Shown here one piece after another: positions 2,135-15,892 of a stretch of 43,776 nt of DNA. Each line of letters begins with the position of its first letter. The stretch's first letter is position 1. The notes below the pieces were generated by a model. The model ran no database searches. It saw nothing but the letters and a program-made list of their open reading frames with translations, and was not told the DNA's origin. The stretch comes from a virus (taxonomy: Duplodnaviria > Heunggongvirae > Uroviricota > Caudoviricetes), in IMG/VR virus record IMGVR_UViG_2537562190_000013; one strand, given 5' to 3'. Position numbers and translations under genes: made by a program.

Positions 2135-3496
2135 ATGACAGTGGCAAATTATAATTCTCTTGTCCAGAAAACTTTCTGCGAAAATGCAATTCGTTCCGTT
2201 GTCATGATTGATGACGATTTTCTGACGTATTCTGAATCAATCAGGGCGTTGAATAACGAAGTTGATTTAGACTACAACAAAATTGACTCATCTAAACGAG
2301 CCGCTACTCTTGAGAGCTTTTTTCAATCTAAAAATATGATTTGTGATGTTGACAATGGTTCTGTTAATTTCGATGTGGATCGGATTAGAAAATCAGATCT
2401 TATTATTGTAGATTATCATCTTGATAATAATGCACCTGATAAAACACTTAAACTATTACAAGATTTGAAAGACTCCGATCATTTAAATATGATTGTAATA
2501 TATACTAGAGAGAATTTAGAAACGGTTTGGATGCAGATATCATCGACTCTCAAAGGTGCTCTGGATATCAACAGCTTGATCATTGACTACGATAATGAAG
2601 ATGTCCAAAGTTATTGGGAAGACGTTGTATTACCGAACTTAAATGATAATGGTAATAAAGCTCTCACAAGAGATGAAACAATAGCCTATATTAAAGACAG
2701 TAAGCCTTGTAGAAGAATTAAAAGATTAATACATGATGATGCTGTGTTGGAGGATCAAAAGGATAAAAACTTCATTGCAAAAATGATTGCAGAATATGCT
2801 GTGTCTAGAAATGCAATTATTTCTAGCAACACATCTGGCAATGTCATTCGGGGTGATGAAAGCGGAGTAAAATGGATTCAATGTGGTAATATCTTTGTCT
2901 CCCTATTTCATAAGGTTCAAGATGATCATGAAAACGATGGAGATAGGATTTGGCAAACTCTCAATGATTCTCTCATTGAATGGAAACCATCTTATTATCA
3001 GTTAATAAAATCTGAAATTCAGAATGCAATCGAAGCTGAGGCTTTATCTTTTGTAAATCATTTGGCTAACGATCATTACGGTCAAGCTGCGTGGTTAAAT
3101 GAGATATTAAAATCAGACTCGCCTGATATTAGATGTAGAAATATTGACTTTGTATTTGGTAATTTATCAGAAGAGCTTTATCAAAGACTTAAAAATAATA
3201 ATACGCTGGATGAATTTATCAAAAGTGTTTTTGATAGCTATTCAAATGAATACGCTAACAGCGGAGTTGCTGCATTGCTCCAATATTGCTCTTCAAAAAT
3301 GGATCTGCCATCAAATAATGATACTTATCACGAAATGTATCATGCTTTAAATATGAATTTGTCTTCAAAGAATTTTGAAGATGGTCATATTTCTACTGGC
3401 ACTATTTTCTTTGATACAGAGTCGAACAAATGGTATTTATGTGTATCTGCGGCATGTGATTTGGTTCCTACTCAGGGTAACGACCCTCACCATGTA
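2135..3496 (+). pseudogene. Receiver (REC)-like domain protein with large unknown C-terminal domain, 5' part; interrupted by IS629-like insertion
   Basis: ORF overlaps upstream gene (stop TAA 2131-2133, ATG 2135, GGAG upstream); REC-like motifs VVMIDDD ... DLIIVDYHL ... MIVIYT; the stop TGA at 3497-3499 is supplied by the first bases of the IS. Confidence 0.6.
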
Positions 3497-3538: not shown

Positions 3539-4426
3539 TCAGGCTGCCAGATCATTATTTCCGATGGAAGCATAATAAGCTTTTTCTGCTTCTGCCGGAG
3601 GAATATGGCCCAGCCTTTCCAGCAATCGTCGATTGTTATACCAGTCCACCCACGTTAGTGTGGCCTGTTCCACTTCTGTCCGGTTTTTCCAGCTCTTACG
3701 GTGTATTACCTCCGCTTTGTAAAGACCATTGATGCTCTCAGCCATCGCGTTGTCATACGAGTCGCCAGTACTCCCTGTTGATGCCAGTAATCCGGCTTCC
3801 TTAAGCCGCTGCGTGTAGGCCAGCGATACATACTGAGAACCTTTATCACTGTGATGGATTGTGCCGGACGGCCGACGGGCCCACAACGCCTGCTCCAGTG
3901 CATCCAGCACGAATGTTGTTTCCATGGATGATGAGACCTGCCATCCCACGATGTATCCGGCGAACACATCAATGATGAACGCCACATAAACGAAGCCCTG
4001 CCATGTGCTTACCCAGGTAAAATCAGCCACCCACAACTGGTCTGGACGTTCTGCCACGAACTGACGGTTTACGCGGTCGCATGCGGCAACGGCTTTCCGG
4101 CTGACGGTAGTGCGGACCTTTTTACCCCGGAGAACACCGGCAAGTCCCATAACTGCCATGAGACGTGCCACAGTGCATCTGGCCACTCTGATACCTTCCC
4201 GTAACAACTGACGCCAGACTTTACGCACACCGTATACCTGGTGATTTTCATCGTATACGCGCTGTATCTCTTTCTTCAGCCAGTCATCGTGCTGCGCACG
4301 GGCACTGCGTTTATCCGGATGATGTCGCTGTTGCTGACAATGGTAATACGTTGACGGGGCAATATGCAGTTCGCTGCATACCGGTCCGACCCCGTACTGC
4401 TCACGCAGCTTATCCAGCAGTGGCAT
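3539..4426 (-). CDS. IS3-family transposase OrfB (DDE integrase core)
   Basis: 295-aa [16 protein letters not shown]...; DDE region ...SDKGSQY...YDNAMAESINGLYKAE... Confidence 0.85.
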   Translation of the reverse strand: MPLLDKLREQYGVGPVCSELHIAPSTYYHCQQQRHHPDKRSARAQHDDWLKKEIQRVYDENHQVYGVRKVWRQLLREGIRVARCTVARLMAVMGLAGVLRGKKVRTTVSRKAVAACDRVNRQFVAERPDQLWVADFTWVSTWQGFVYVAFIIDVFAGYIVGWQVSSSMETTFVLDALEQALWARRPSGTIHHSDKGSQYVSLAYTQRLKEAGLLASTGSTGDSYDNAMAESINGLYKAEVIHRKSWKNRTEVEQATLTWVDWYNNRRLLERLGHIPPAEAEKAYYASIGNNDLAA

Positions 4427-4752
4427 TATTTTTTCCAGAGGCGGTCGAACTCCGCCTTCGCAAAATAAGCGGAAGCCTGGCGAAGGATATCGTTACTGCG
4501 GCGCAGTTCACGATTTTCACGTTCCAGCTCTTTCAGACGCTGACGTTCAGCGGTGGTGAGTCCACCATCACCACTCCCGGTATCCCGCTCATGCTGGCGA
4601 ACCCAGACACGCAGAGTCTCCGGCGTACAGCCAATCTTTGGGGCAATGGAACAAATTGCCGCCCACTGTGAGTCATATTCATCCTGACTTTCCAGAACCA
4701 TACGAATCGCCCGCTGACGGACTTCGGGGGAAAAACGAGTATTTTTAGTCAT
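4426..4752 (-). CDS. IS3-family transposase OrfA (HTH, leucine-zipper region)
   Basis: 108-aa [22 protein letters not shown]...; overlaps orfB across an AAAAAA slippery stretch, typical of -1 frameshift-generated OrfAB. Confidence 0.85.
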
Positions 4753-5684: not shown

Positions 5685-5740
5685 TTTCTTTACCTTCAGG
5701 ATTATATTAGCTATTCTGATACTTAGGCTACCAGAGCATT

Positions 5741-6952
5741 TTATCTTTGAGCTTGAACGTAATCACTCCACCATTGCATCAAACTCTGTCGCTCTATCAG
5801 ATATTCTGCACGATTGTATGCTGCGATAATTTCATCTTTTTTCGAGTGGGCAAGCGCTGCCTCAAGAACTTCAGCTCTGAATTTACCAGACTCCTCTGCC
5901 GCTGTTCGTGCAATAGAACGCATACCGTGAGCTACAAGCTCGCCTCCGAACCCCATTCGGATGATAGCTGCGTTGGCTGTTTGTTCATGCATATGATTAA
6001 GAGGCGCTTTTATGCTGGGGAAAACCCATTCTCTATGCCCACTTATTGATTTCATTAATTCAAGGATGCGCAAAGCTTCTTTACTCAAAGGAACTTTGTG
6101 AAGCTTTTTCATTTTCATGAAATCAGCAGGAATGTTCCAAATGCTGTTGGTTGTATCAATATCAGACCACCTTGCGCGAACGGCTTCACCCGGACGAACC
6201 CATGTCAACAATTGCCATTCAATTAGCATACGTGTTTCCAACCGGATTGACGCATTCGTCAAAGATTCCATAAACCTTGGCAATTCGCTTGGGGGAAGGG
6301 CAGGCATATTTTGCTTTTTTGGTTTACTGAATCTTTGACCAAGGTTGTCAGCCGGGTTGAACTCAATAAGTTCTTCAGTAGCTGCCCACCGGAAGATTTC
6401 ATTCAGACGTGAAATGATACGGCGTAGAGTTTCCAATACGCCTCGTTGCTCAATAGGATCAAGGTGTTGTTTTAAGAGCTTAGGTCGGATCTCATTGATA
6501 GGGACATTACCCAGACCGGGAAAGACATTTCTCTCTAAGCTGCGCCAGATGTCTGCTGCATGGTCTTGTGAGATACCTGATGTCTTTACCTTCTCATCTA
6601 ACCATTTCCGCGCTACGGCTTGGAGAGTGTGCTCAGTAGCACTCTTTAATGCCTTCGCCTTATCGTTGTTATGGATTTGGGGATCAACACCATTTGCCAG
6701 AAAGGAGAGATATTCATCACGTAAGGCTCTGGCTCTTGCAAGGGTAAGGTGAGGATATGTCCCAAGGCTCATTTTGGTTCTTTTCTTGCTCACTGGTACT
6801 GCATACCTGAAATACCAATTTTTCTTGCCTCCTTTCGCCAAAGGAGCGATTCGTAGAATCAGACCATCACCGTCAAACAAGTTGATTTCTTTATCGGCTG
6901 GCTTGGTGCTTTTGATTTCAGTGTCAGTGAGCTTCTTAGCGATTTTTGCCAT
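5741..6952 (-). CDS. int: Tyrosine recombinase / P4-type integrase
   Basis: N-terminal arm-binding-like MAKIAKKLTDTEIKSTKP...LFDGDGL; C-terminal catalytic-domain-like motifs; ATG at 6952 has a GAGGG ribosome-binding site; the track ORF extends to 6994. Confidence 0.85.
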   Translation of the reverse strand: MAKIAKKLTDTEIKSTKPADKEINLFDGDGLILRIAPLAKGGKKNWYFRYAVPVSKKRTKMSLGTYPHLTLARARALRDEYLSFLANGVDPQIHNNDKAKALKSATEHTLQAVARKWLDEKVKTSGISQDHAADIWRSLERNVFPGLGNVPINEIRPKLLKQHLDPIEQRGVLETLRRIISRLNEIFRWAATEELIEFNPADNLGQRFSKPKKQNMPALPPSELPRFMESLTNASIRLETRMLIEWQLLTWVRPGEAVRARWSDIDTTNSIWNIPADFMKMKKLHKVPLSKEALRILELMKSISGHREWVFPSIKAPLNHMHEQTANAAIIRMGFGGELVAHGMRSIARTAAEESGKFRAEVLEAALAHSKKDEIIAAYNRAEYLIERQSLMQWWSDYVQAQR

Positions 6953-7117
6953 TTTGGGACCCTCGGTTTTTGGACCCTTCTTAGTGGGTCCCATTCAGGG
7001 TGCCATAACTCGTAGTTCTCAGCAATTCTCACTGGACGACAATAGACGTAAAAAAGCCCGCAGAGCTTGTGCTGTGTGGGCTTAGTAGACTTCATTGAAC
7101 TTCAAACAACTAAAAAG

Positions 7118-7149
7118 TGGTGGAGCTGGCGGGAGTTGAACCAGCGTCC
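7118..7149 (-). other. att core: 32-bp copy of tmRNA (ssrA) 3' end (T-arm plus acceptor stem plus CCA), not a complete gene
   Basis: Minus-strand reading GGACGCTGGTTCAACTCCCGCCAGCTCCACCA; sequence further upstream does not continue as tmRNA. Confidence 0.7.
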
Positions 7150-7239
7150 ATTTGTTTTTAATTTATTGATTTTTATTGTTTTATTTTATTTCTCGCATGC
7201 TTCGTGTACTTCACGTATCCTTTTTAAGGAAATATATAT

Positions 7240-7905
7240 TTATGGATTCTTGCTTAAAAAATATTCGAAGTTATGGTTGCCAAGCACATACCTCATTTCT
7301 CCCCGTGTGCGGTAAAAAGAAGTTTGAATCTCATCAACATAGTAGTTAAAAAAAATCTTTAACATTTCGGTAGTCATCTTTTGCAAATGGGTTGACAGTT
7401 TAGCTGCATTACTTTTTGAATCAGACTTTAATAAATCTGGAAATGATGCTGTGATATTTAATTTAACTTTAGATGATGAGTGTAACCAGCCACATGCTTG
7501 TTTATACTGTGAATGCATGTACGCCCAGTTTTCATCAGTGTTGGTAGATTTAAGATTCTCGAAATCAAGAGTTCTAATTGTAATATCGAAATCCCCCCCG
7601 TTATCAACTTTTTGTAAGGATATACGTGCAAGATGTTCAATCATTGAGCGAAAATTAAGATGAAGATATCGCTCTCGTTTATGAAGTATCGCTGTAATTG
7701 AACTTAAAACATCATAAATAATACTTTTTATAAAGGTTTTGTGACTTATTTCTGGATGTGAGTTATGGATAAACTCCAGAAAAAGTACATGTTTATAAGC
7801 CGATGTAAGATTGTTTTCGGTGCGAATATCGACCTGAAATGATTTTATCATTGTGATAAATTCTTTCACGTCTTTTCTAAATCCATGTGGGTCTCTTTGA
7901 AGCAT
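7240..7905 (-). CDS. Hypothetical protein, third gene of ParA-like operon
   Basis: 221-aa ORF; start ATG overlaps upstream stop (TAATG); AT-rich; no recognised motifs. Confidence 0.55.
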   Translation of the reverse strand: MLQRDPHGFRKDVKEFITMIKSFQVDIRTENNLTSAYKHVLFLEFIHNSHPEISHKTFIKSIIYDVLSSITAILHKRERYLHLNFRSMIEHLARISLQKVDNGGDFDITIRTLDFENLKSTNTDENWAYMHSQYKQACGWLHSSSKVKLNITASFPDLLKSDSKSNAAKLSTHLQKMTTEMLKIFFNYYVDEIQTSFYRTRGEMRYVLGNHNFEYFLSKNP

Positions 7906-8318
7906 TATTTTCTATCCTTCTTCAAAAGAGCATTAATCCACGTACCTACATCTCGATTTGCATTACGTTTGACGTTACTTTTTTTAAAAGTAAGTGAGTT
8001 TTCATTATATCCAATAATAAATTTGTCAGTTTTAAAATACTCTGATGCTTTATATATGCATTCTTTAATGTCTCTCTCGCTCATATTTACAAGATTACGG
8101 GTAAGTCTAGCGCATAATAAAGTTCTTGACTTGATGACGTAGTCTAAGAAACTTAATCCAAATACATTTTTTACGAATTCTGCTGCATCTTCATTTTTAA
8201 CAAAAATTTCCCTAGAATAGATTGCTATTGTTATCAAACCAATAAACGCTTCTTTTGACGAGGGCTTCTTATAAACCAATGTCTGTAATAATTCGAGGTT
8301 GTTACTATTTTTATTCAT
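7905..8318 (-). CDS. Hypothetical protein, second gene of ParA-like operon
   Basis: 137-aa ORF overlapping ParA-like gene by 8 nt; AT-rich; no recognised motifs. Confidence 0.55.
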   Translation of the reverse strand: MNKNSNNLELLQTLVYKKPSSKEAFIGLITIAIYSREIFVKNEDAAEFVKNVFGLSFLDYVIKSRTLLCARLTRNLVNMSERDIKECIYKASEYFKTDKFIIGYNENSLTFKKSNVKRNANRDVGTWINALLKKDRK

Positions 8319-9162
8319 CTTCCCCCCCCGTTTGCACTTCTTGGATCCGACTTAAAAACTCTTCACAAATCGCTTTGATATATTTTCTGGATGATTTATA
8401 ACTTGATGATATATTACCTCTACCACCCACCATCAAATCCTGTACAAACTTCAACTGGTTATCAAAAAAGTATAGTTCATTAAAAGGTTCAGTACTTTCA
8501 AAGTCTGTCTTTAGCTTTTTTGTCTTTTTTGATAGATTTTCTAGGGTATTAGTATAAATAAAACCAAGGTTTTGAATGTTTTTATGGTCATAATTATCTT
8601 GAATGTTTTCTATTACGCTTAAAAGACTTGTCGCACCTAAAATTGAGTAGTGGTCAATTTTAACTGGCACAATATAATAATCTGAAGCAACGAGAGCTGC
8701 ATCAGTAAATAATGAAATGGTTGGTGGGCTATCGATCAAAATGAAGTCATATATATCTCGAAGCTTATGTTCTTCTATAAAGCGTTTTAGCTTATGTAAT
8801 CTTGCCGCAGGTTGTTCAATATCAAATATTGTATTAATATCACCAAAAATCATATCTAAGTGCTCTGACATCTTGATGATAATTTCATCAGGAGTGACCT
8901 GCTGAACTTTACCCGTTAAGCTTGATTTTGTCTCGAATATTCGTCTGATGGTTTTTGTATTTTCTAAGTGATCAGCTATATACTCTTTCACTCGATCATA
9001 TTTACTAAGTATTGACTGTGTAGCGTTAAATTGTGGGTCAATATCGATAATTAATACCTTTTTATCCATGAAGTTTGCAAGATATTCAGCAATGCCGACG
9101 CATAAAGTTGTTTTACCAACCCCACCTTTCATATTTATGAAACTTATTACTGGTGTAGTCAT
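8311..9162 (-). CDS. ParA/MinD/Soj-family P-loop ATPase (small, type Ib-like, no N-terminal HTH)
   Basis: Deviant Walker A MKGGVGKTT, A' motif IIDIDPQ, Walker B FILIDSPP; GGGA ribosome-binding site. Confidence 0.75.
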   Translation of the reverse strand: MTTPVISFINMKGGVGKTTLCVGIAEYLANFMDKKVLIIDIDPQFNATQSILSKYDRVKEYIADHLENTKTIRRIFETKSSLTGKVQQVTPDEIIIKMSEHLDMIFGDINTIFDIEQPAARLHKLKRFIEEHKLRDIYDFILIDSPPTISLFTDAALVASDYYIVPVKIDHYSILGATSLLSVIENIQDNYDHKNIQNLGFIYTNTLENLSKKTKKLKTDFESTEPFNELYFFDNQLKFVQDLMVGGRGNISSSYKSSRKYIKAICEEFLSRIQEVQTGGEDE

Positions 9163-9412
9163 TTTATCCCTCTAATTTATACTTCTTAAACAAAAATTTA
9201 AATGTTACATGTAAGTGAATTTACTTATAACATTTTTTTTGAAACAATAATACTGTTGTTTTATCAGGGGGATGGCATTTTTCAATGGAATAAATCTATA
9301 AGGGGTATGCTCATAATTGTAAAGAATACCTATTCAAGCGTGGATTTGTGGAGGACCTCTCGTTTTGAACGAAATAGGCTTCTTTGAATAACATGCTTTA
9401 CCTTGCTCAAGG

Positions 9413-10588
9413 CTACTTTTTGCAATTACTTGTGAGCGTTGTTGAGCTGTGGTTGTCATAATCACTCAAGTAACGCCCATAATGACGAAACAACATTTCG
9501 GGCCCCTTATGCCCCATCTGCCCTGCTAGCCAGAAGAGATTAGCTCCTTGGCTAATGTACTTAGTAGCATAAGTGTGCCTGGTCTGATATGGGTTTCTGT
9601 AGCGAATACCTGCTTTTCGCAATGTTGGCACCCATGCTTTTTTCCTGATTGCATCAGCACTTGCCCAAGGCTTATTGGTCTTTGGATCTTCAAAGACCGT
9701 AGCATCTTTCATGAACGTAAATGGCTTCTGATTTATCAGCGCCAACATTGCCTCTTCTGTCAGTTCAACTTTACGAGTACCGGCTTTTGTTTTGGTCCCT
9801 TTGATAACACCAACAACACTTGCGCTCTGGACATGTGCTGTTTTTCCAACAAAGTCGATATCACGCCATCGAAGGGCACATAGTTCAGAACTACGCAGGC
9901 CTGTATGTATAGCGAACCGGAACAGATTTTCCCATTGTTTGTTTCCGGCTGCTGCTAGTAATGCATCAACTTCTGCTGGTGATAGCGGATCAACCACATA
10001 GCTGCTTTCTGCTTCTGACTTATCACTTTGGTAGCGCGAAGCTGTTACTAACGATACGGGGTTAATTTGAAGTACCCCATCGGTCACGGCTTCATCAAGT
10101 GCTGACCGCAGGAAAGATAACTGGTTGCGAATGGTTTTTAAGGTTGTTTTCTGGCTTTGAATCCACGCTTTCAGGGTTGCTGGTGTTAATTCACTTGCAG
10201 GGCAAATGTGAAGTGAGGCTAACGCACTACGGCATTTTTTATAGCCACCAATCGTAGAGGGTGAAAGTTTTCTTGTTTCGCAGATTTCAAGATATTCGTC
10301 CAGGTACATCTTTACCGTTTTGCCTGCAGCAGCATTACCAAAAATTTTCAAACGAGCAGAACGGGGAAAATATTCTGCATAAATGAATGTTCCCCTTTCG
10401 ATCTTATTATGGATTTCGCCGAGTGTACGCTCGGCGTATTTAATGTTCTTTGGTGTTACTTCCAGATTGGAAAGCGGCTCACGACATCTAACTCCTTTGT
10501 AGGTGAAAGTTATATTGATCGTTTCGCCCTGGCGGTGTTTCCTGATTGTTACGCCGCGCGGTAGTTTGAGCAGTTTTGTCTGGCCCAT
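9413..10588 (-). CDS. int: Prophage tyrosine integrase
   Basis: 391-aa ORF with C-terminal catalytic-domain-like motifs (...HTGLRSSEL..., ...TRHTYAT..., ...LAGQMGHK...); overlaps the upstream xis-like gene. Confidence 0.85.
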   Translation of the reverse strand: MGQTKLLKLPRGVTIRKHRQGETINITFTYKGVRCREPLSNLEVTPKNIKYAERTLGEIHNKIERGTFIYAEYFPRSARLKIFGNAAAGKTVKMYLDEYLEICETRKLSPSTIGGYKKCRSALASLHICPASELTPATLKAWIQSQKTTLKTIRNQLSFLRSALDEAVTDGVLQINPVSLVTASRYQSDKSEAESSYVVDPLSPAEVDALLAAAGNKQWENLFRFAIHTGLRSSELCALRWRDIDFVGKTAHVQSASVVGVIKGTKTKAGTRKVELTEEAMLALINQKPFTFMKDATVFEDPKTNKPWASADAIRKKAWVPTLRKAGIRYRNPYQTRHTYATKYISQGANLFWLAGQMGHKGPEMLFRHYGRYLSDYDNHSSTTLTSNCKK

Positions 10589-13733: not shown

Positions 13734-13979
13734 ATGACTTTTGATGAAAAAGAACTTGATAATGCAATTAATAAAATCATCGTAACGTCGCTCTTTTCCT
13801 GTCTCAGCGACACTCAGCAGAAACGGTTCTACGAATCGGCTTTCAACATGATCGAGCGTTGTTGTTTCTGCGATGCCGACGAGTTACCTGAAAAAATCAG
13901 GAAACAGTTGGCTGATGCTCTTCGAGTGCGACTTTCTGACCAATTTTCTGAAATGTGCTCTCCGAATTTGGACAAATAG
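13734..13979 (+). CDS. Hypothetical small protein
   Basis: 81-aa ORF with AAGGA ribosome-binding site 7 nt upstream; convergent overlap with 13897-14172. Confidence 0.4.
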   Translation: MTFDEKELDNAINKIIVTSLFSCLSDTQQKRFYESAFNMIERCCFCDADELPEKIRKQLADALRVRLSDQFSEMCSPNLDK

Positions 13980-14172
13980 AAAAAGGCCATTTCCATTCAG
14001 GGTCTGATGGAAATACTTCAGCCTGTTCCAAAGCACGGCGTAAAGAGAACACAACTCCAGCCATAATCTGATGTTTCCCATTGGTCCAGCTATCGCCGCT
14101 CTGATCTACAGGGGCGGCTATGTCGTATGACCAAACGACTTCACAGTTATTGTTTAAAATCTGGACTTTCAT
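13897..14172 (-). CDS. Hypothetical protein, first gene downstream of the putative leftward early promoter (N/rex position), not N-like
   Basis: ATG at 14172 with AGGTG ribosome-binding site; 91 aa; no arginine-rich motif. Confidence 0.45.
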   Translation of the reverse strand: MKVQILNNNCEVVWSYDIAAPVDQSGDSWTNGKHQIMAGVVFSLRRALEQAEVFPSDPEWKWPFSICPNSESTFQKIGQKVALEEHQPTVS

Positions 14173-14299
14173 TTCATACACCTGCTTTAACATGAGTGCC
14201 TGATGGCACAACATGACTCAACGAATCATCCTGGACTTCATATGCCCCAGGCGGCTACTTCGTGGGCGTCCTGCCTGTTCGTTATCTTTGATATAAAAT

Positions 14300-14313
14300 C
14301 TAACTTAACTTAG
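14300..14313. promoter_or_regulatory. Operator-like site CTAACTTAACTTAG (oL-like) overlapping a candidate leftward promoter
   Basis: Shares the CTAA-N5-CTTAG pattern with the two sites in the cI-cro intergenic region. Confidence 0.45.
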
Positions 14314-14378
14314 TTATTATGGCAAGAGAAAACACCAAACTTTTCTTAGTTCGGTGCCTTAGTTAGAGAAGAGAGGTC

Positions 14379-15005
14379 TTAGAGTTCGTATTGAACTCCT
14401 TTGACTACACCAATGATAAGGCAATTACCATTGATAGGGATGTTGGGATACCGAGGATTTAATGGCACTAAAAACTTTTGAGGGCCATCGATGACTAATT
14501 TTTTTACTGTAGCTTCGTTTGTTCCATCAAGTCGAGCGATGACTATTTTTCCATGACGAGGTTCTGCATCTGGATCTACAATCACTGTTGCGCCTTCTGG
14601 TATTGTTGGGAGGCCATTAGGGTTAGTCATGGAGTCACCTTTAACCTCTAATGCAAATGAGTTATCACCAATCTTTAATGATGTATCTACCCACTTGTCC
14701 ACTTCACTAAACACTTCTGCTGCCCTGCACTCAGTAAACTGCCCAGCCTGAACCCACGATATTACAGGAACTCTGCGCATGTTTGTGACGAGTTTGCCTT
14801 CAAACTCAGCACCATAAAGAATGTAATCTATTGACGTATTGAAGAACTTCGCTAATTTCGAAAGTGCCTCCCCACCAGGGGTATTGATGTCTTTCTCCCA
14901 GTACCCCACAGCAACGTCGCTTACTCCACAAAATTTACCCAATTCTTTCTGGGACGTTCCGGTAACTCTTCTCAGAGCTTTTATACGCTGACCAACCGTT
15001 TCCAT
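14379..15005 (-). CDS. cI: CI-like prophage repressor (N-terminal HTH, C-terminal S24 LexA-like peptidase domain)
   Basis: HTH segment QKELGKFCGVSDVAVGYWEKD; S24-like GDSM serine motif and C-terminal Lys (VKKL); divergent from a cro-like gene. Confidence 0.85.
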   Translation of the reverse strand: METVGQRIKALRRVTGTSQKELGKFCGVSDVAVGYWEKDINTPGGEALSKLAKFFNTSIDYILYGAEFEGKLVTNMRRVPVISWVQAGQFTECRAAEVFSEVDKWVDTSLKIGDNSFALEVKGDSMTNPNGLPTIPEGATVIVDPDAEPRHGKIVIARLDGTNEATVKKLVIDGPQKFLVPLNPRYPNIPINGNCLIIGVVKGVQYEL

Positions 15006-15027
15006 AGGAGCACCATTTCTTGAATTG

Positions 15028-15090
15028 CTAAGTAATCTTAGTTTTTATTGACCAAAGATAGATTTGTAATTAGCATCTAATAAAACTTAG
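15028..15090. promoter_or_regulatory. oR-like operator region: two 14-bp sites CTAAGTAATCTTAG (15028-15041) and CTAATAAAACTTAG (15077-15090) between cI and cro
   Basis: Palindromic half-sites CTAAG/CTTAG in the divergent promoter region. Confidence 0.5.
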
Positions 15091-15102
15091 TTTGGAGGGC
15101 GT

Positions 15103-15303
15103 ATGACAACTGACGATATCGAAAGCTACTTCGGCAGTATTGAGAAAGTTGCTGCTTTTTTCGGCATAACAACTGAAGCCGTTTATCAGTGGCGAAACCG
15201 TCCGGGCCAGTTAATTCCAAAAGGACGTGCAGCAGAAGCTGCATATAGAACTTGCGGACGGTTGCCATTTAAACCTGAGCTTTATGAAAAATCTAATGGA
15301 TAA
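15103..15303 (+). CDS. cro: Cro-like small HTH regulator (YdaS-like)
   Basis: 66-aa ORF, GGAGGG ribosome-binding site, divergent from cI; HTH-like segment AAFFGITTEAVYQWRN. Confidence 0.7.
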   Translation: MTTDDIESYFGSIEKVAAFFGITTEAVYQWRNRPGQLIPKGRAAEAAYRTCGRLPFKPELYEKSNG

Positions 15304-15892
15304 ATCGATTAACAGAAACCACAGAACGATGAGGCTAACCGTGGGTAAGCATCACTGGAAAGTAGAAAAACAGCCTGAGTGGTACGTGAAAGCTGTCAGA
15401 AAAACTATCGCAGCGTTGCCGGGTGGTTACGCTGAAGCAGCTGACTGGCTGGATGTAACAGAAAACGCATTATTTAACCGCCTTCGTGCCGATGGCGATC
15501 AGATTTTCCCGCTGGGATGGGCAATGATTTTGCAACGTGCTGGTGGAACTCACTTCATTGCTGACGCTGTGGCGCAGTCTGCAAATGGCGTCTTTGTGTC
15601 TCTTCCTGACGTCGAGGATGTGGACAACGCCGATATTAACCAGCGCCTGCTGGAAGTCATTGAACAGATTGGCAGTTATTCCAGACAGATTCGTTCGGCA
15701 ATCGAAGACGGTGTGGTGGAACCGCATGAGAAGACAGCAATTAACGACGAGCTGTATCTCTCAATTTCGAAGCTGCAGGAGCATGCAGCACTGGTCTACA
15801 AAATCTTTTGCATTTCAGAAAGTAATGACGCCCGCGAGTGTGCAGCTCCGGGCGCCGTGGCGTGTCGTGACTGTGGAGAAACTAACGCATGA
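15296..15892 (+). CDS. CII-position regulatory protein (YdaT-like), start uncertain
   Basis: ATG overlaps cro stop (ATGGATAA); ORF continues to 15892. Confidence 0.45.

What the first reader, a model, noticed from the sequence alone, without database searches (positions are those of the whole stretch)
14300..15090. Three 14-bp operator-like sites of pattern CTAA-N5-CTTAG around the repressor gene
Two sites lie in the cI-cro divergent promoter region (15028-15041 and 15077-15090) and one downstream of cI, overlapping a candidate leftward promoter (14300-14313). Together they predict the immunity specificity of this phage.
Basis: seen in the sequence. Interest (0 to 1): 0.35.

Follow-up and report, generated by a model that had tools for sequence, protein, structure and literature searches.

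The report
P22-type operators of a prophage repressor
The three 14-bp sites are real and are almost certainly where this prophage's CI repressor and Cro bind; the switch is laid out like that of phage P22 but recognises CTAAG half-sites instead of TTAAG, so it is an ordinary, uncharacterised immunity type.

Summary
CTAA-N5-CTTAG occurs at 14300-13, 15028-41 and 15077-90 and nowhere else in the 43.8-kb window; about 0.2 matches are expected by chance. The same three places, and only those, carry it in the complete genomes of phages LLS and mEp460_4F5.

The sites are better described as two-fold symmetric CTAAG-N4-CTTAG. In CI-homologous loci from eight genera (57-92% CI identity) the half-sites and the 49-bp spacing never change, while spacers and flanks drift.

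The repressor is 208 aa, with an HTH_3 domain and an S24 peptidase domain. Its DNA-binding domain is closest to that of P22 C2, and cro belongs to the P22_Cro family.

Scanning P22's own immC shows a colinear layout:
- OR3 sits upstream of the pR -35.
- A weak OR2 sits in the pR spacer.
- OR1 abuts the -10.
- OL1 sits in the pL spacer and overlaps the -10 by 3 nt.
- OL2 lies about 35 bp further on.

The OL2 candidate is confounded by the cI terminator hairpin.

This is a new member of a known kind, a heteroimmune P22-like switch. It is widespread (519 of 5426 complete E. coli genomes) and not described in the searched literature. No binding experiment exists. Interest is low to moderate.

The parts
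14300..14313 (.). OL1-like operator CTAACTTAACTTAG. It lies in the spacer of the leftward promoter and overlaps its -10 by 3 nt.
   Evidence: Exact motif and top PWM hit of the window at 27.6 bits. The 17-mer AATCTAACTTAACTTAG is invariant in all loci except Gilliamella, whose pL site CTAAGTTATCTTAG has the same geometry. P22 OL1 has the same position relative to its promoter.
14336..14349 (.). Candidate OL2-like weak operator CAAACTTTTCTTAG, 36 bp from OL1 and upstream of the pL -35. It is confounded by the cI terminator hairpin.
   Evidence: Fourth-best PWM hit at 12.0 bits, which is not significant alone. It is a member of repeat family D1. CAAAC and CTTAG are kept while the spacer changes from TTTT to TAAA in relatives. 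P22 has a 1-mismatch site 35 bp from its OL1. The site coincides with a conserved hairpin.
15028..15041 (.). OR3-like operator CTAAGTAATCTTAG, with perfect inverted arms. It is proximal to cI, ends 6 bp upstream of the pR -35 and contains a candidate pRM -10.
   Evidence: Exact motif. Half-sites are invariant in 21 distinct OR variants while the first two spacer bases vary. It is colinear with P22 OR3.
15053..15066 (.). OR2-like weak central operator CAAAGATAGATTTG in the pR spacer. Its centre is 25 bp from OR3 and 24 bp from OR1.
   Evidence: In 12 of 13 loci the best PWM offset between the two strong sites is exactly +25, at or above the 99.67th percentile of each locus. Variants are symmetric: CAAA..TTTG in the window against CTAA..TTAG in Rahnella. 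It aligns with P22 OR2, CTAAAGATTCCTTTAG.
15077..15090 (.). OR1-like operator CTAATAAAACTTAG. It directly abuts the pR -10 and covers the expected transcription start.
   Evidence: Exact motif and PWM score of 23.3 bits. CTAA/CTTAG are invariant while positions 5-8 vary. In Rahnella and Gilliamella this site is identical to OL1. P22 OR1 abuts its -10 in the same way.
15048..15076 (+). pR-like promoter for cro: TTGACC, 17-nt spacer, TAGCAT.
   Evidence: Promoter scan gives 9 of 12 matches. The -35 is invariant except in Gilliamella (TTGATC). The -10 varies only at positions 3 and 4 (TAGCAT, TAATAT, TAACAT, TAGTAT) in every relative except Gilliamella.
14297..14325 (-). pL-like promoter for the leftward early operon: TTGCCA, 17-nt spacer, TAGATT.
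   Evidence: Promoter scan gives 9 of 12 matches. Most relatives have TTGACC as the -35, and the -10 is invariant. Gilliamella has TTGACT-N17-TAGAAT around its site.
15035..15040 (-). Candidate -10 (TAAGAT) of the maintenance promoter for cI, embedded in the OR3-like site. This is an inference.
   Evidence: ATCTTAG on the plus strand is invariant in all relatives, including the two 'spacer' bases AT, whereas the other two spacer bases vary. A GGTG-type Shine-Dalgarno sequence 6-8 nt before the cI ATG requires a start upstream of about 15017. No -35 was recognised.
14379..15005 (-). cI repressor gene, 208 aa: N-terminal HTH_3 domain and C-terminal S24 autopeptidase.
   Evidence: Pfam PF01381 and PF00717. 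The N-terminal domain matches P22 C2 at E = 2e-10 over 63 residues. The C-terminal domain matches lambda CI at E about 1e-27, with Ala87-Gly88, Ser125 and Lys168 aligned to lambda Ala111-Gly112, Ser149 and Lys192.
15103..15303 (+). cro gene, 66 aa.
   Evidence: Pfam PF14549 P22_Cro, E = 4e-11. A GGAGG sequence lies 6 nt upstream of the ATG.
14329..14360 (-). Probable intrinsic terminator of the cI transcript: an 11-13 bp hairpin followed by UUUUCUCUU, immediately upstream of the pL -35.
   Evidence: Fold energy -15.1 kcal/mol, z = -2.4. The consensus hairpin is kept in 12 sequences, with one compensatory pair and many G-U changes.
14285..15316 (.). Exchangeable immunity cassette: OL/pL, cI, OR, cro.
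   Evidence: Matches to heteroimmune phages stop at window positions 14281-14283 on the left (query ends 82-84). They resume at about 15317 on the right (query start 1618).

Best explanation
These are the operators of a lambdoid, P22-type lysogeny switch.

Dimers of the CI repressor (14379-15005) recognise two-fold symmetric sites of the form CTAAG-N4-CTTAG. Later in infection the Cro protein (15103-15303) most likely recognises the same sites.

At OR there are three sites whose centres are 25 and 24 bp apart:
- A strong cI-proximal site (15028-41, OR3-like) sits just upstream of the pR -35 and probably over the -10 of the cI maintenance promoter.
- A weak central site (15053-66, OR2-like) sits in the pR spacer and is probably filled cooperatively.
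- A strong cro-proximal site (15077-90, OR1-like) abuts the pR -10 and covers the transcription start.

At OL one strong site (14300-13) occupies the spacer and -10 of the leftward early promoter. A possible weak second site (14336-49) lies upstream of its -35.

In the lysogen, CI on these sites shuts off pR and pL. SOS-induced self-cleavage at Ala87-Gly88 separates the DNA-binding domain from the dimerisation and cooperativity domain and so releases repression.

The half-site sequence together with the recognition helix (VSDVAVGYWE) defines an immunity specificity distinct from P22's TTAAG.

What is shown: the existence of the sites, their enrichment, their conservation, their positions on promoter-like sequences, the protein families, and colinearity with P22. 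What is inferred: which protein binds, relative affinities, cooperativity, and the location of pRM.
For: 1. Enrichment. There are 3 places against about 0.1-0.2 expected, and none elsewhere in the window. The same holds in the complete LLS and mEp460_4F5 genomes.

2. Independent recovery. A PWM trained on other genera ranks the three sites as the top 3 of 43.8 kb, above all 200 shuffles.

3. Phylogenetic footprint. Loci were chosen by CI homology only: Enterobacter, Kosakonia, Kluyvera, Rahnella, Serratia and Gilliamella, phages LLS and mEp460_4F5, and 80 IMG/VR contigs. In all of them CTAA/CTTAG and the 49-bp spacing are invariant, while flanks and spacer bases change.

4. Conserved recognition helix. 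The CI helix-turn-helix is invariant in relatives of 83-92% identity. It is nearly so in Gilliamella at 57%. This matches the unchanged half-sites.

5. Promoters. Promoter-like sequences are found at both places. Their variation in relatives falls at the least critical positions.

6. Protein families. The repressor N-terminal domain is homologous to P22 C2, with Val33 conserved as Val31. P22 C2 binds TTAAG half-sites separated by 4 uncontacted bp (PMC5175364). Cro belongs to P22_Cro.

7. Colinearity with P22. Scanning P22 immC itself gives the same order, spacing (25/23 against 25/24 bp) and promoter relationships for OR3, OR2, OR1, OL1 and OL2. The OR regions align without internal gaps.

8. 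Cassette exchange. Heteroimmune phages such as SfV share the flanks but carry a different cI and different repeats at the same positions.
Against: There is no binding or expression data for this repressor. Nothing was found in the searched literature.

The central OR site is weak: it scores 2.5 bits in the window and is absent from the 15 best-scoring positions of the PWM scan. It rests on register and conservation only.

The OL2 candidate is not significant on its own. It lies in a conserved terminator hairpin, which could explain its conservation.

No convincing -35 was found for a maintenance promoter, so the OR3-like role of 15028-41 is inferred.

The structure model was unusable (pLDDT 36), so no structural check of the recognition helix was possible.
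Confidence: 0.86

Rival explanations
1. The sites are bound by only one of the two regulators, for example Cro, or by some other phage or host protein. CI would then recognise a different sequence in the same regions.
For: No binding data exist. The left half-site is imperfect at position 5 in two of the three sites, so asymmetric recognition cannot be excluded.
Against: An unbiased repeat search of the whole cI region finds no other family shared between the OL and OR regions. The CI N-terminal domain is homologous to P22 C2, whose operators have the same AAG-N4-CTT core and layout. In P22 and lambda, CI and Cro share their operators; this is established knowledge.
Confidence: 0.06
2. The conservation reflects promoter elements and A+T-rich intergenic composition rather than a regulator-binding motif.
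For: OL1 overlaps the pL -10. The OR3-like site contains a -10-like TAAGAT. The regions are A+T rich.
Against: The same 14-bp pattern recurs at three places that stand in three different relations to promoter hexamers: in a spacer and -10, upstream of a -35, and downstream of a -10. Dinucleotide-preserving shuffles give about 0.2 matches. Conserved positions follow the two-fold symmetry of the motif rather than promoter hexamers.
Confidence: 0.04
3. The three matches are a chance coincidence.
For: None beyond the shortness of the motif, which has 9 specified bases.
Against: None of 100 shuffles reached the observed count. The same result holds in two other phage genomes. Positions and spacing are identical across genera.
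Confidence: 0.01

Closest known systems
Salmonella phage P22 immC (C2 repressor, Cro, OR1-3, OL1-3)
   Same: - Protein families. The repressor N-terminal domain is homologous over 63 residues at E = 2e-10 (about 43% identity by my own count from the printed alignment), with the DNA-contacting Val conserved. Cro belongs to the P22_Cro family.
- Operator geometry. Pentamer half-sites are separated by 4 bp around an AAG-N4-CTT core.
- Site order. A strong site, then the -35, a weak site in the spacer, the -10 and a strong site, with centres 25/24 bp apart here against 25/23 bp in P22.
- OL. OL1 sits in the pL spacer and overlaps the -10 by 3 nt, with a second site 35-36 bp away.
   Different: - The half-site is CTAAG rather than TTAAG, with C at the outer pentamer position.
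- The recognition helix is VSDVAVGYWE against VSNVAISQWE in P22, i.e. N32D, I35V, S36G and Q37Y in P22 numbering.
- No third OL site was detected.
- The OL2 candidate is embedded in the cI terminator.
- cI has a 22-nt leader with a Shine-Dalgarno sequence, whereas the P22 c2 ATG lies 2 nt from OR3.
- The cII is of the CP76/YmfL type.
Phage lambda OR/OL with CI and Cro
   Same: - The C-terminal S24 domain is homologous at E about 1e-27, with the cleavage site and the Ser/Lys dyad aligned.
- cI and cro are divergent.
- OR is tripartite with about 24-bp spacing.
- The operators overlap pR and pL.
   Different: - The lambda operators are 17 bp long and of unrelated sequence.
- Lambda Cro has a different fold family.
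- Lambda has rexAB between cI and OL and three OL sites.
- Lambda cI mRNA from pRM is leaderless; these points are established knowledge.
Shigella phage SfV / E. coli e14-type early regions (YmfL, YfdP/Q/R neighbours)
   Same: The flanking DNA on both sides of the cassette is the same at 94-99% identity. The gene order is the same. GenBank U82619 annotates a 'putative operator region' between cI and cro.
   Different: SfV cI (224 aa) and cro are unrelated at the DNA level. Its repeats are of the GGTACA/TGTACC type. It is therefore heteroimmune.
Phages LLS, mEp460_4F5, Kati, vB_EcoM-689R6 and vB_EcoS-569R4
   Same: They carry the same cI/operator/cro cassette at 77-99.9% identity, with the same three exact sites. 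They are predicted to be homoimmune with this prophage.
   Different: Their virion and other modules differ. None of the records inspected (689R6, LLS, mEp460_4F5) has operators annotated.

Membership tests
Lambdoid CI/Cro immunity switch | The repressor has an N-terminal HTH and a C-terminal S24 self-cleaving domain with an Ala-Gly site and a Ser/Lys dyad. | tested here: met
   PF01381 and PF00717. Ala87-Gly88, Ser125 and Lys168 align with lambda Ala111-Gly112, Ser149 and Lys192. These residues are invariant in relatives.
Lambdoid CI/Cro immunity switch | A divergently transcribed cro gene lies across a short intergenic region that contains the operators. | tested here: met
   cro at 15103-15303 (plus strand) matches PF14549. 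The gap is 97 bp.
Lambdoid CI/Cro immunity switch | Several related two-fold symmetric operators overlap pR/pRM and pL. | tested here: met
   There are three strong sites and two weak candidates on promoter-like sequences.
Lambdoid CI/Cro immunity switch | CI and Cro physically bind these sites, bind cooperatively, and autoregulate pRM. | not testable with these tools
   This needs EMSA or footprinting and reporter assays. No publication was found.
P22 C2-type operators | Pentamer half-sites are separated by a 4-bp uncontacted centre around an AAG-N4-CTT core. | tested here: met
   The window motif CTAAG-N4-CTTAG compares with the P22 consensus ATTTAAGATATCTTAAAT (PMC5175364). The central bases vary freely in relatives.
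P22 C2-type operators | The half-site sequence is TTAAG, i.e. immP22 specificity. | tested here: not met
   The outer base is C in every site of every relative. This is therefore not immP22 but a different specificity within the same architecture.
P22 C2-type operators | The DNA-binding domain is homologous to the P22 C2 N-terminal domain. | tested here: met
   E = 2e-10 over residues 3-65 against 1ADR, 2R1J and 3JXB.
P22 C2-type operators | The OR3, -35, OR2, -10, OR1 layout and the OL1-in-spacer layout are the same. | tested here: met
   Direct scan of P22 AY121863 and a gap-free alignment of the OR regions.

The most novel reading that the evidence does not exclude
This cassette is a natural specificity variant of the P22 C2 family. 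A single outer half-site change (T to C) goes together with a few recognition-helix substitutions (N32D, S36G, Q37Y in P22 numbering). In addition, the second left operator has been folded into the loop and 3' stem of the cI terminator, so that one DNA segment would serve both transcription termination and repression. If both points hold, the system would be a clean model for how heteroimmunity evolves by minimal coupled changes in protein and DNA.
Probability: 0.3. Interest if true: 0.4.

Novelty: new member of a known kind. Interest (0 to 1): 0.25.

Why it matters
It assigns an operator sequence, a site map and a predicted immunity group to one of the commoner prophage repressors of Enterobacterales. 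The cassette is present in about 10% of complete E. coli genomes, including O145:H28 and strain 042. Close relatives of the repressor occur in Salmonella, Citrobacter, Klebsiella and Enterobacter. The operator layout was confirmed in Enterobacter, Kosakonia, Kluyvera, Rahnella and Serratia, and even in Gilliamella from bees.

This allows prediction of which phages and prophages are homoimmune. It gives a simple sequence signature for annotating this switch. It also offers a close natural comparison to the structurally characterised P22 C2-operator complex for studying how DNA-binding specificity shifts. It does not reveal a new mechanism.

Tried and rejected
- **Structure prediction.** AlphaFold2 prediction of CI from the 9-sequence alignment gave mean pLDDT 36 and pTM 0.27. 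That is too poor for a fold search, so it was abandoned. Sequence homology to solved structures was used instead.
- **Rfam.** A search of the whole window and a permissive search of 14100-14400 found nothing in the immunity region. The conserved leader at 14200-14284 folds no better than shuffles (z = -1.2).
- **Literature.** Searches for the three operator strings, the RefSeq protein accessions and mEp460 gave no description of this switch. The primary P22 C2-DNA structure paper (PMID 18237194) is not held, so contact details were taken from PMC5175364.
- **Third OL site.** I looked for one about 19 bp beyond the OL2 candidate, as in P22. The sequence 14355-14368 does not match and is not conserved.
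- **TAGATT as an alternative pR -10.** I considered TAGATT at 15059-64 (pair I1). I rejected it because no -35 fits, and because TTGACC-N17-TAGCAT is conserved.
- **IMG/VR scan.** It returned only proteins 100% identical to CI. These were useful for polymorphism but not for divergence.

Full report
**What is in the sequence**

- 14300-14313: CTAACTTAACTTAG
- 15028-15041: CTAAGTAATCTTAG
- 15077-15090: CTAATAAAACTTAG

The pattern CTAA-N5-CTTAG occurs nowhere else on either strand of the 43,776-bp window. Dinucleotide-preserving shuffles give a mean of 0.21 matches, and none of 100 reached the observed count.

The middle site has perfect inverted arms. The motif is therefore better written as the two-fold symmetric CTAAG-N4-CTTAG, with the fifth base of the left arm relaxed in two of the three sites. 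An unbiased repeat search of 14270-15110 recovers the same family and no competing one.

**Genes and promoters around the sites**

| Feature | Coordinates | Evidence |
|---|---|---|
| Repressor (cI), 208 aa | 14379-15005, minus | HTH_3 plus Peptidase_S24 |
| Cro, 66 aa | 15103-15303, plus | P22_Cro family |
| CII-like protein | 15332-15892 | CP76/YmfL type |

The repressor's C-terminal domain aligns with lambda CI at E about 1e-27. Ala87-Gly88, Ser125 and Lys168 align with the lambda cleavage site and catalytic dyad. Its N-terminal domain is closest to the P22 C2 DNA-binding domain (E = 2e-10, residues 3-65).

A consensus promoter scan finds two promoter-like sites in the right places:
- Rightward: TTGACC (15048-53), 17-nt spacer, TAGCAT (15071-76).
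- Leftward: TTGCCA (14325-20), 17-nt spacer, TAGATT (14302-14297).

The site at 15077-90 therefore abuts the rightward -10 and covers the expected start. The site at 15028-41 ends 6 bp upstream of the rightward -35. The site at 14300-13 fills the leftward spacer and overlaps its -10 by 3 nt.

**Related sequences**

The cI/operator/cro block is found, covering at least 80% of the query, in 518 of 5426 complete E. coli genomes; 519 have any match. These include strain 042 and O145:H28 RM12761. It is also found in the isolated phages vB_EcoM-689R6, vB_EcoS-569R4, Kati, mEp460_4F5 (94%) and LLS (77%).

In the complete LLS and mEp460_4F5 genomes the motif occurs only at the three homologous places.

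A protein search shows CI relatives of 83-92% identity in Salmonella, Citrobacter, Enterobacter, Klebsiella, Raoultella, Kluyvera and Leclercia. Their helix-turn-helix is invariant.

Loci fetched purely by CI homology came from Enterobacter, Kosakonia, Kluyvera, Rahnella, Serratia and Gilliamella, the last at 57% CI identity. All of them keep CTAA/CTTAG at both OR sites, always exactly 49 bp apart, while flanks and the central bases drift. The left site is invariant as AATCTAACTTAACTTAG in all but Gilliamella. There a site CTAAGTTATCTTAG sits in the same register inside TTGACT-N17-TAGAAT.

In Rahnella and Gilliamella the cro-proximal site is identical to the left operator.

A weight matrix trained on these foreign sites ranks the three window sites first, second and third, above every one of 200 shuffles.

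Two relatives at 38% identity (Morganella, Serratia H1w) lack the motif and show other repeats.

Weak central OR site. Between the two OR sites lies CAAAGATAGATTTG (15053-66), centred 25 bp from one strong site and 24 bp from the other.
- It is a weak match, at 2.5 bits.
- In 12 of 13 loci the best-scoring offset in the gap is exactly this one, at or above the 99.67th percentile of each locus.
- Its variants change symmetrically: CAAA..TTTG here against CTAA..TTAG in Rahnella.

Possible second OL site. A further candidate, CAAACTTTTCTTAG (14336-49), lies 36 bp from the left operator.
- It is the fourth-best hit in the window but is not significant alone.
- Its arms are kept while the centre changes from TTTT to TAAA in relatives.
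- It coincides with a conserved hairpin followed by a U tract on the cI strand, which is probably the cI terminator. Its conservation is therefore ambiguous.

**Comparison with P22, tested directly**

P22 C2 binds six natural operators with consensus ATTTAAGATATCTTAAAT. The half-sites are TTAAG, separated by four uncontacted base pairs, and Val33 packs on the TTAA (PMC5175364).

Scanning the P22 immC record AY121863 gives the sites below.

| P22 site | Coordinates | Mismatches | Position |
|---|---|---|---|
| OR3 | 2257-70 | 0 | 6 bp upstream of the -35 TTGACT |
| OR2 | 2282-95 | 2 | in the pR spacer |
| OR1 | 2305-18 | 1 | abutting the -10 |
| OL1 | 1486-99 | 0 | in the spacer of TTGACC-N17-TAAATT, overlapping the -10 by 3 nt |
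| OL2 | 1521-34 | 1 | 35 bp from OL1 |

The P22 OR centres are 25 and 23 bp apart. The window's layout is the same feature for feature, and the two OR regions align without internal gaps.

The differences are these:
- The outer half-site base is C instead of T.
- The recognition helix is VSDVAVGYWE against VSNVAISQWE in P22.
- No third OL site is present.
- cI has a 22-nt leader with a Shine-Dalgarno sequence.

**Immunity cassette**

Matches to heteroimmune phages (SfV, SfII, SfIV, ST64B and others) stop at window positions 14281-14283 and resume at about 15317. SfV carries an unrelated cI and GGTACA-type repeats at the same two positions. The operators therefore travel with cI and cro as a 1.03-kb exchangeable unit, which is the classical definition of an immunity region.

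**Most likely mechanism**

CI dimers occupy the OR1-like and OL1-like sites and block RNA polymerase at pR and pL. The weak OR2-like site is probably filled through cooperative contacts of the lambda-like C-terminal domains.

The OR3-like site contains TAAGAT, which is invariant including two 'spacer' bases. It probably overlaps the -10 of the maintenance promoter and so mediates negative autoregulation and shut-off by Cro.

RecA-stimulated cleavage at Ala87-Gly88 induces the prophage.

Only the anatomy and conservation are shown. Binding, affinities, cooperativity and the position of pRM are inferred.

**Novelty and verdict**

No paper in the searched library contains these operator strings or the protein accessions. 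The GenBank records inspected do not annotate operators.

This is a previously uncharacterised specificity within a thoroughly known architecture, so it is a new member of a known kind. Interest is low to moderate.

Noticed in passing
window 14200-14284: An approximately 85-bp block lies immediately downstream of the candidate pL start. It is 85-99% identical in many heteroimmune phages (SfV, SfII, SfIV, ST64B, YeP1-3, phiNP, SPN3UB and others). It forms most of the roughly 118-nt leader of the first leftward gene (13897-14172, minus strand). It has no Rfam match, and its fold is no better than shuffles. It could be a nut- or put-like or other leader element.
   Followed up: partly
window 14329-14360 (minus strand): A conserved hairpin with a U tract lies just after the cI stop and just upstream of the pL -35. 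It is probably the cI terminator. There are 11 consensus pairs, one compensatory CG-to-UA change and many G-U changes. The 3' arm is much more conserved than the 5' arm, which hints at a second, DNA-level constraint, possibly the OL2 candidate.
   Followed up: yes
window 3539-4752 (minus strand), pseudoknot at 4355-4471: An IS3-family transposase with its ALIL frameshift pseudoknot (Rfam RF01497, 120 bits) appears to interrupt a response-regulator gene (2135-3496, annotated as truncated in the identical RefSeq record NZ_CP027219).
   Followed up: partly
window 5723-10588: There are two integrase genes in tandem, at 5723-6952 and 9413-10588, both on the minus strand. A ParA-family gene (8311-9162) lies between them. 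The prophage therefore seems to sit next to another integrative element. E. coli 042 has a comparable arrangement next to ssrA (L097).
   Followed up: no
L091 (Gilliamella mensalis), sites at 999, 1847 and 1896 in window orientation: A bee-gut Orbaceae genome carries a CI of only 57% identity. It nevertheless has the same half-sites, the same 49-bp OR spacing and the same pL geometry. The specificity is therefore old and stable across orders.
   Followed up: partly
L095 (Morganella) and L096 (Serratia sp. H1w), regions flanking the cI homologue: CI relatives at 38% identity lack CTAAG sites. They show repeated ACAC/GTGT-containing motifs (for example TCACGTTATGTGT) at both the OR and OL positions. 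This is likely another specificity of the same family.
   Followed up: no
L001 (SfV) 2080-2130 and 2858-2926: SfV, which shares both flanks of the cassette, has GGGTACA / TGTACC repeats at the positions equivalent to OL and OR. Only the OR region is annotated in GenBank, as 'putative operator region'.
   Followed up: partly
window 15006-15027 against L100 (P22) 2255-2256: The window's cI has a 22-nt leader with a GGTG Shine-Dalgarno sequence between the ATG and the OR3-like site. In P22 the c2 ATG lies 2 nt from OR3. This implies different translation initiation of the maintenance transcript.
   Followed up: no
phage records ON470584 (vB_EcoM-689R6) and ON470598 (vB_EcoS-569R4): The same immunity cassette, at least 99.6% identical over cI and the operators, is carried by phages named as a myovirus and as a siphovirus. 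This shows module exchange across virion types.
   Followed up: no
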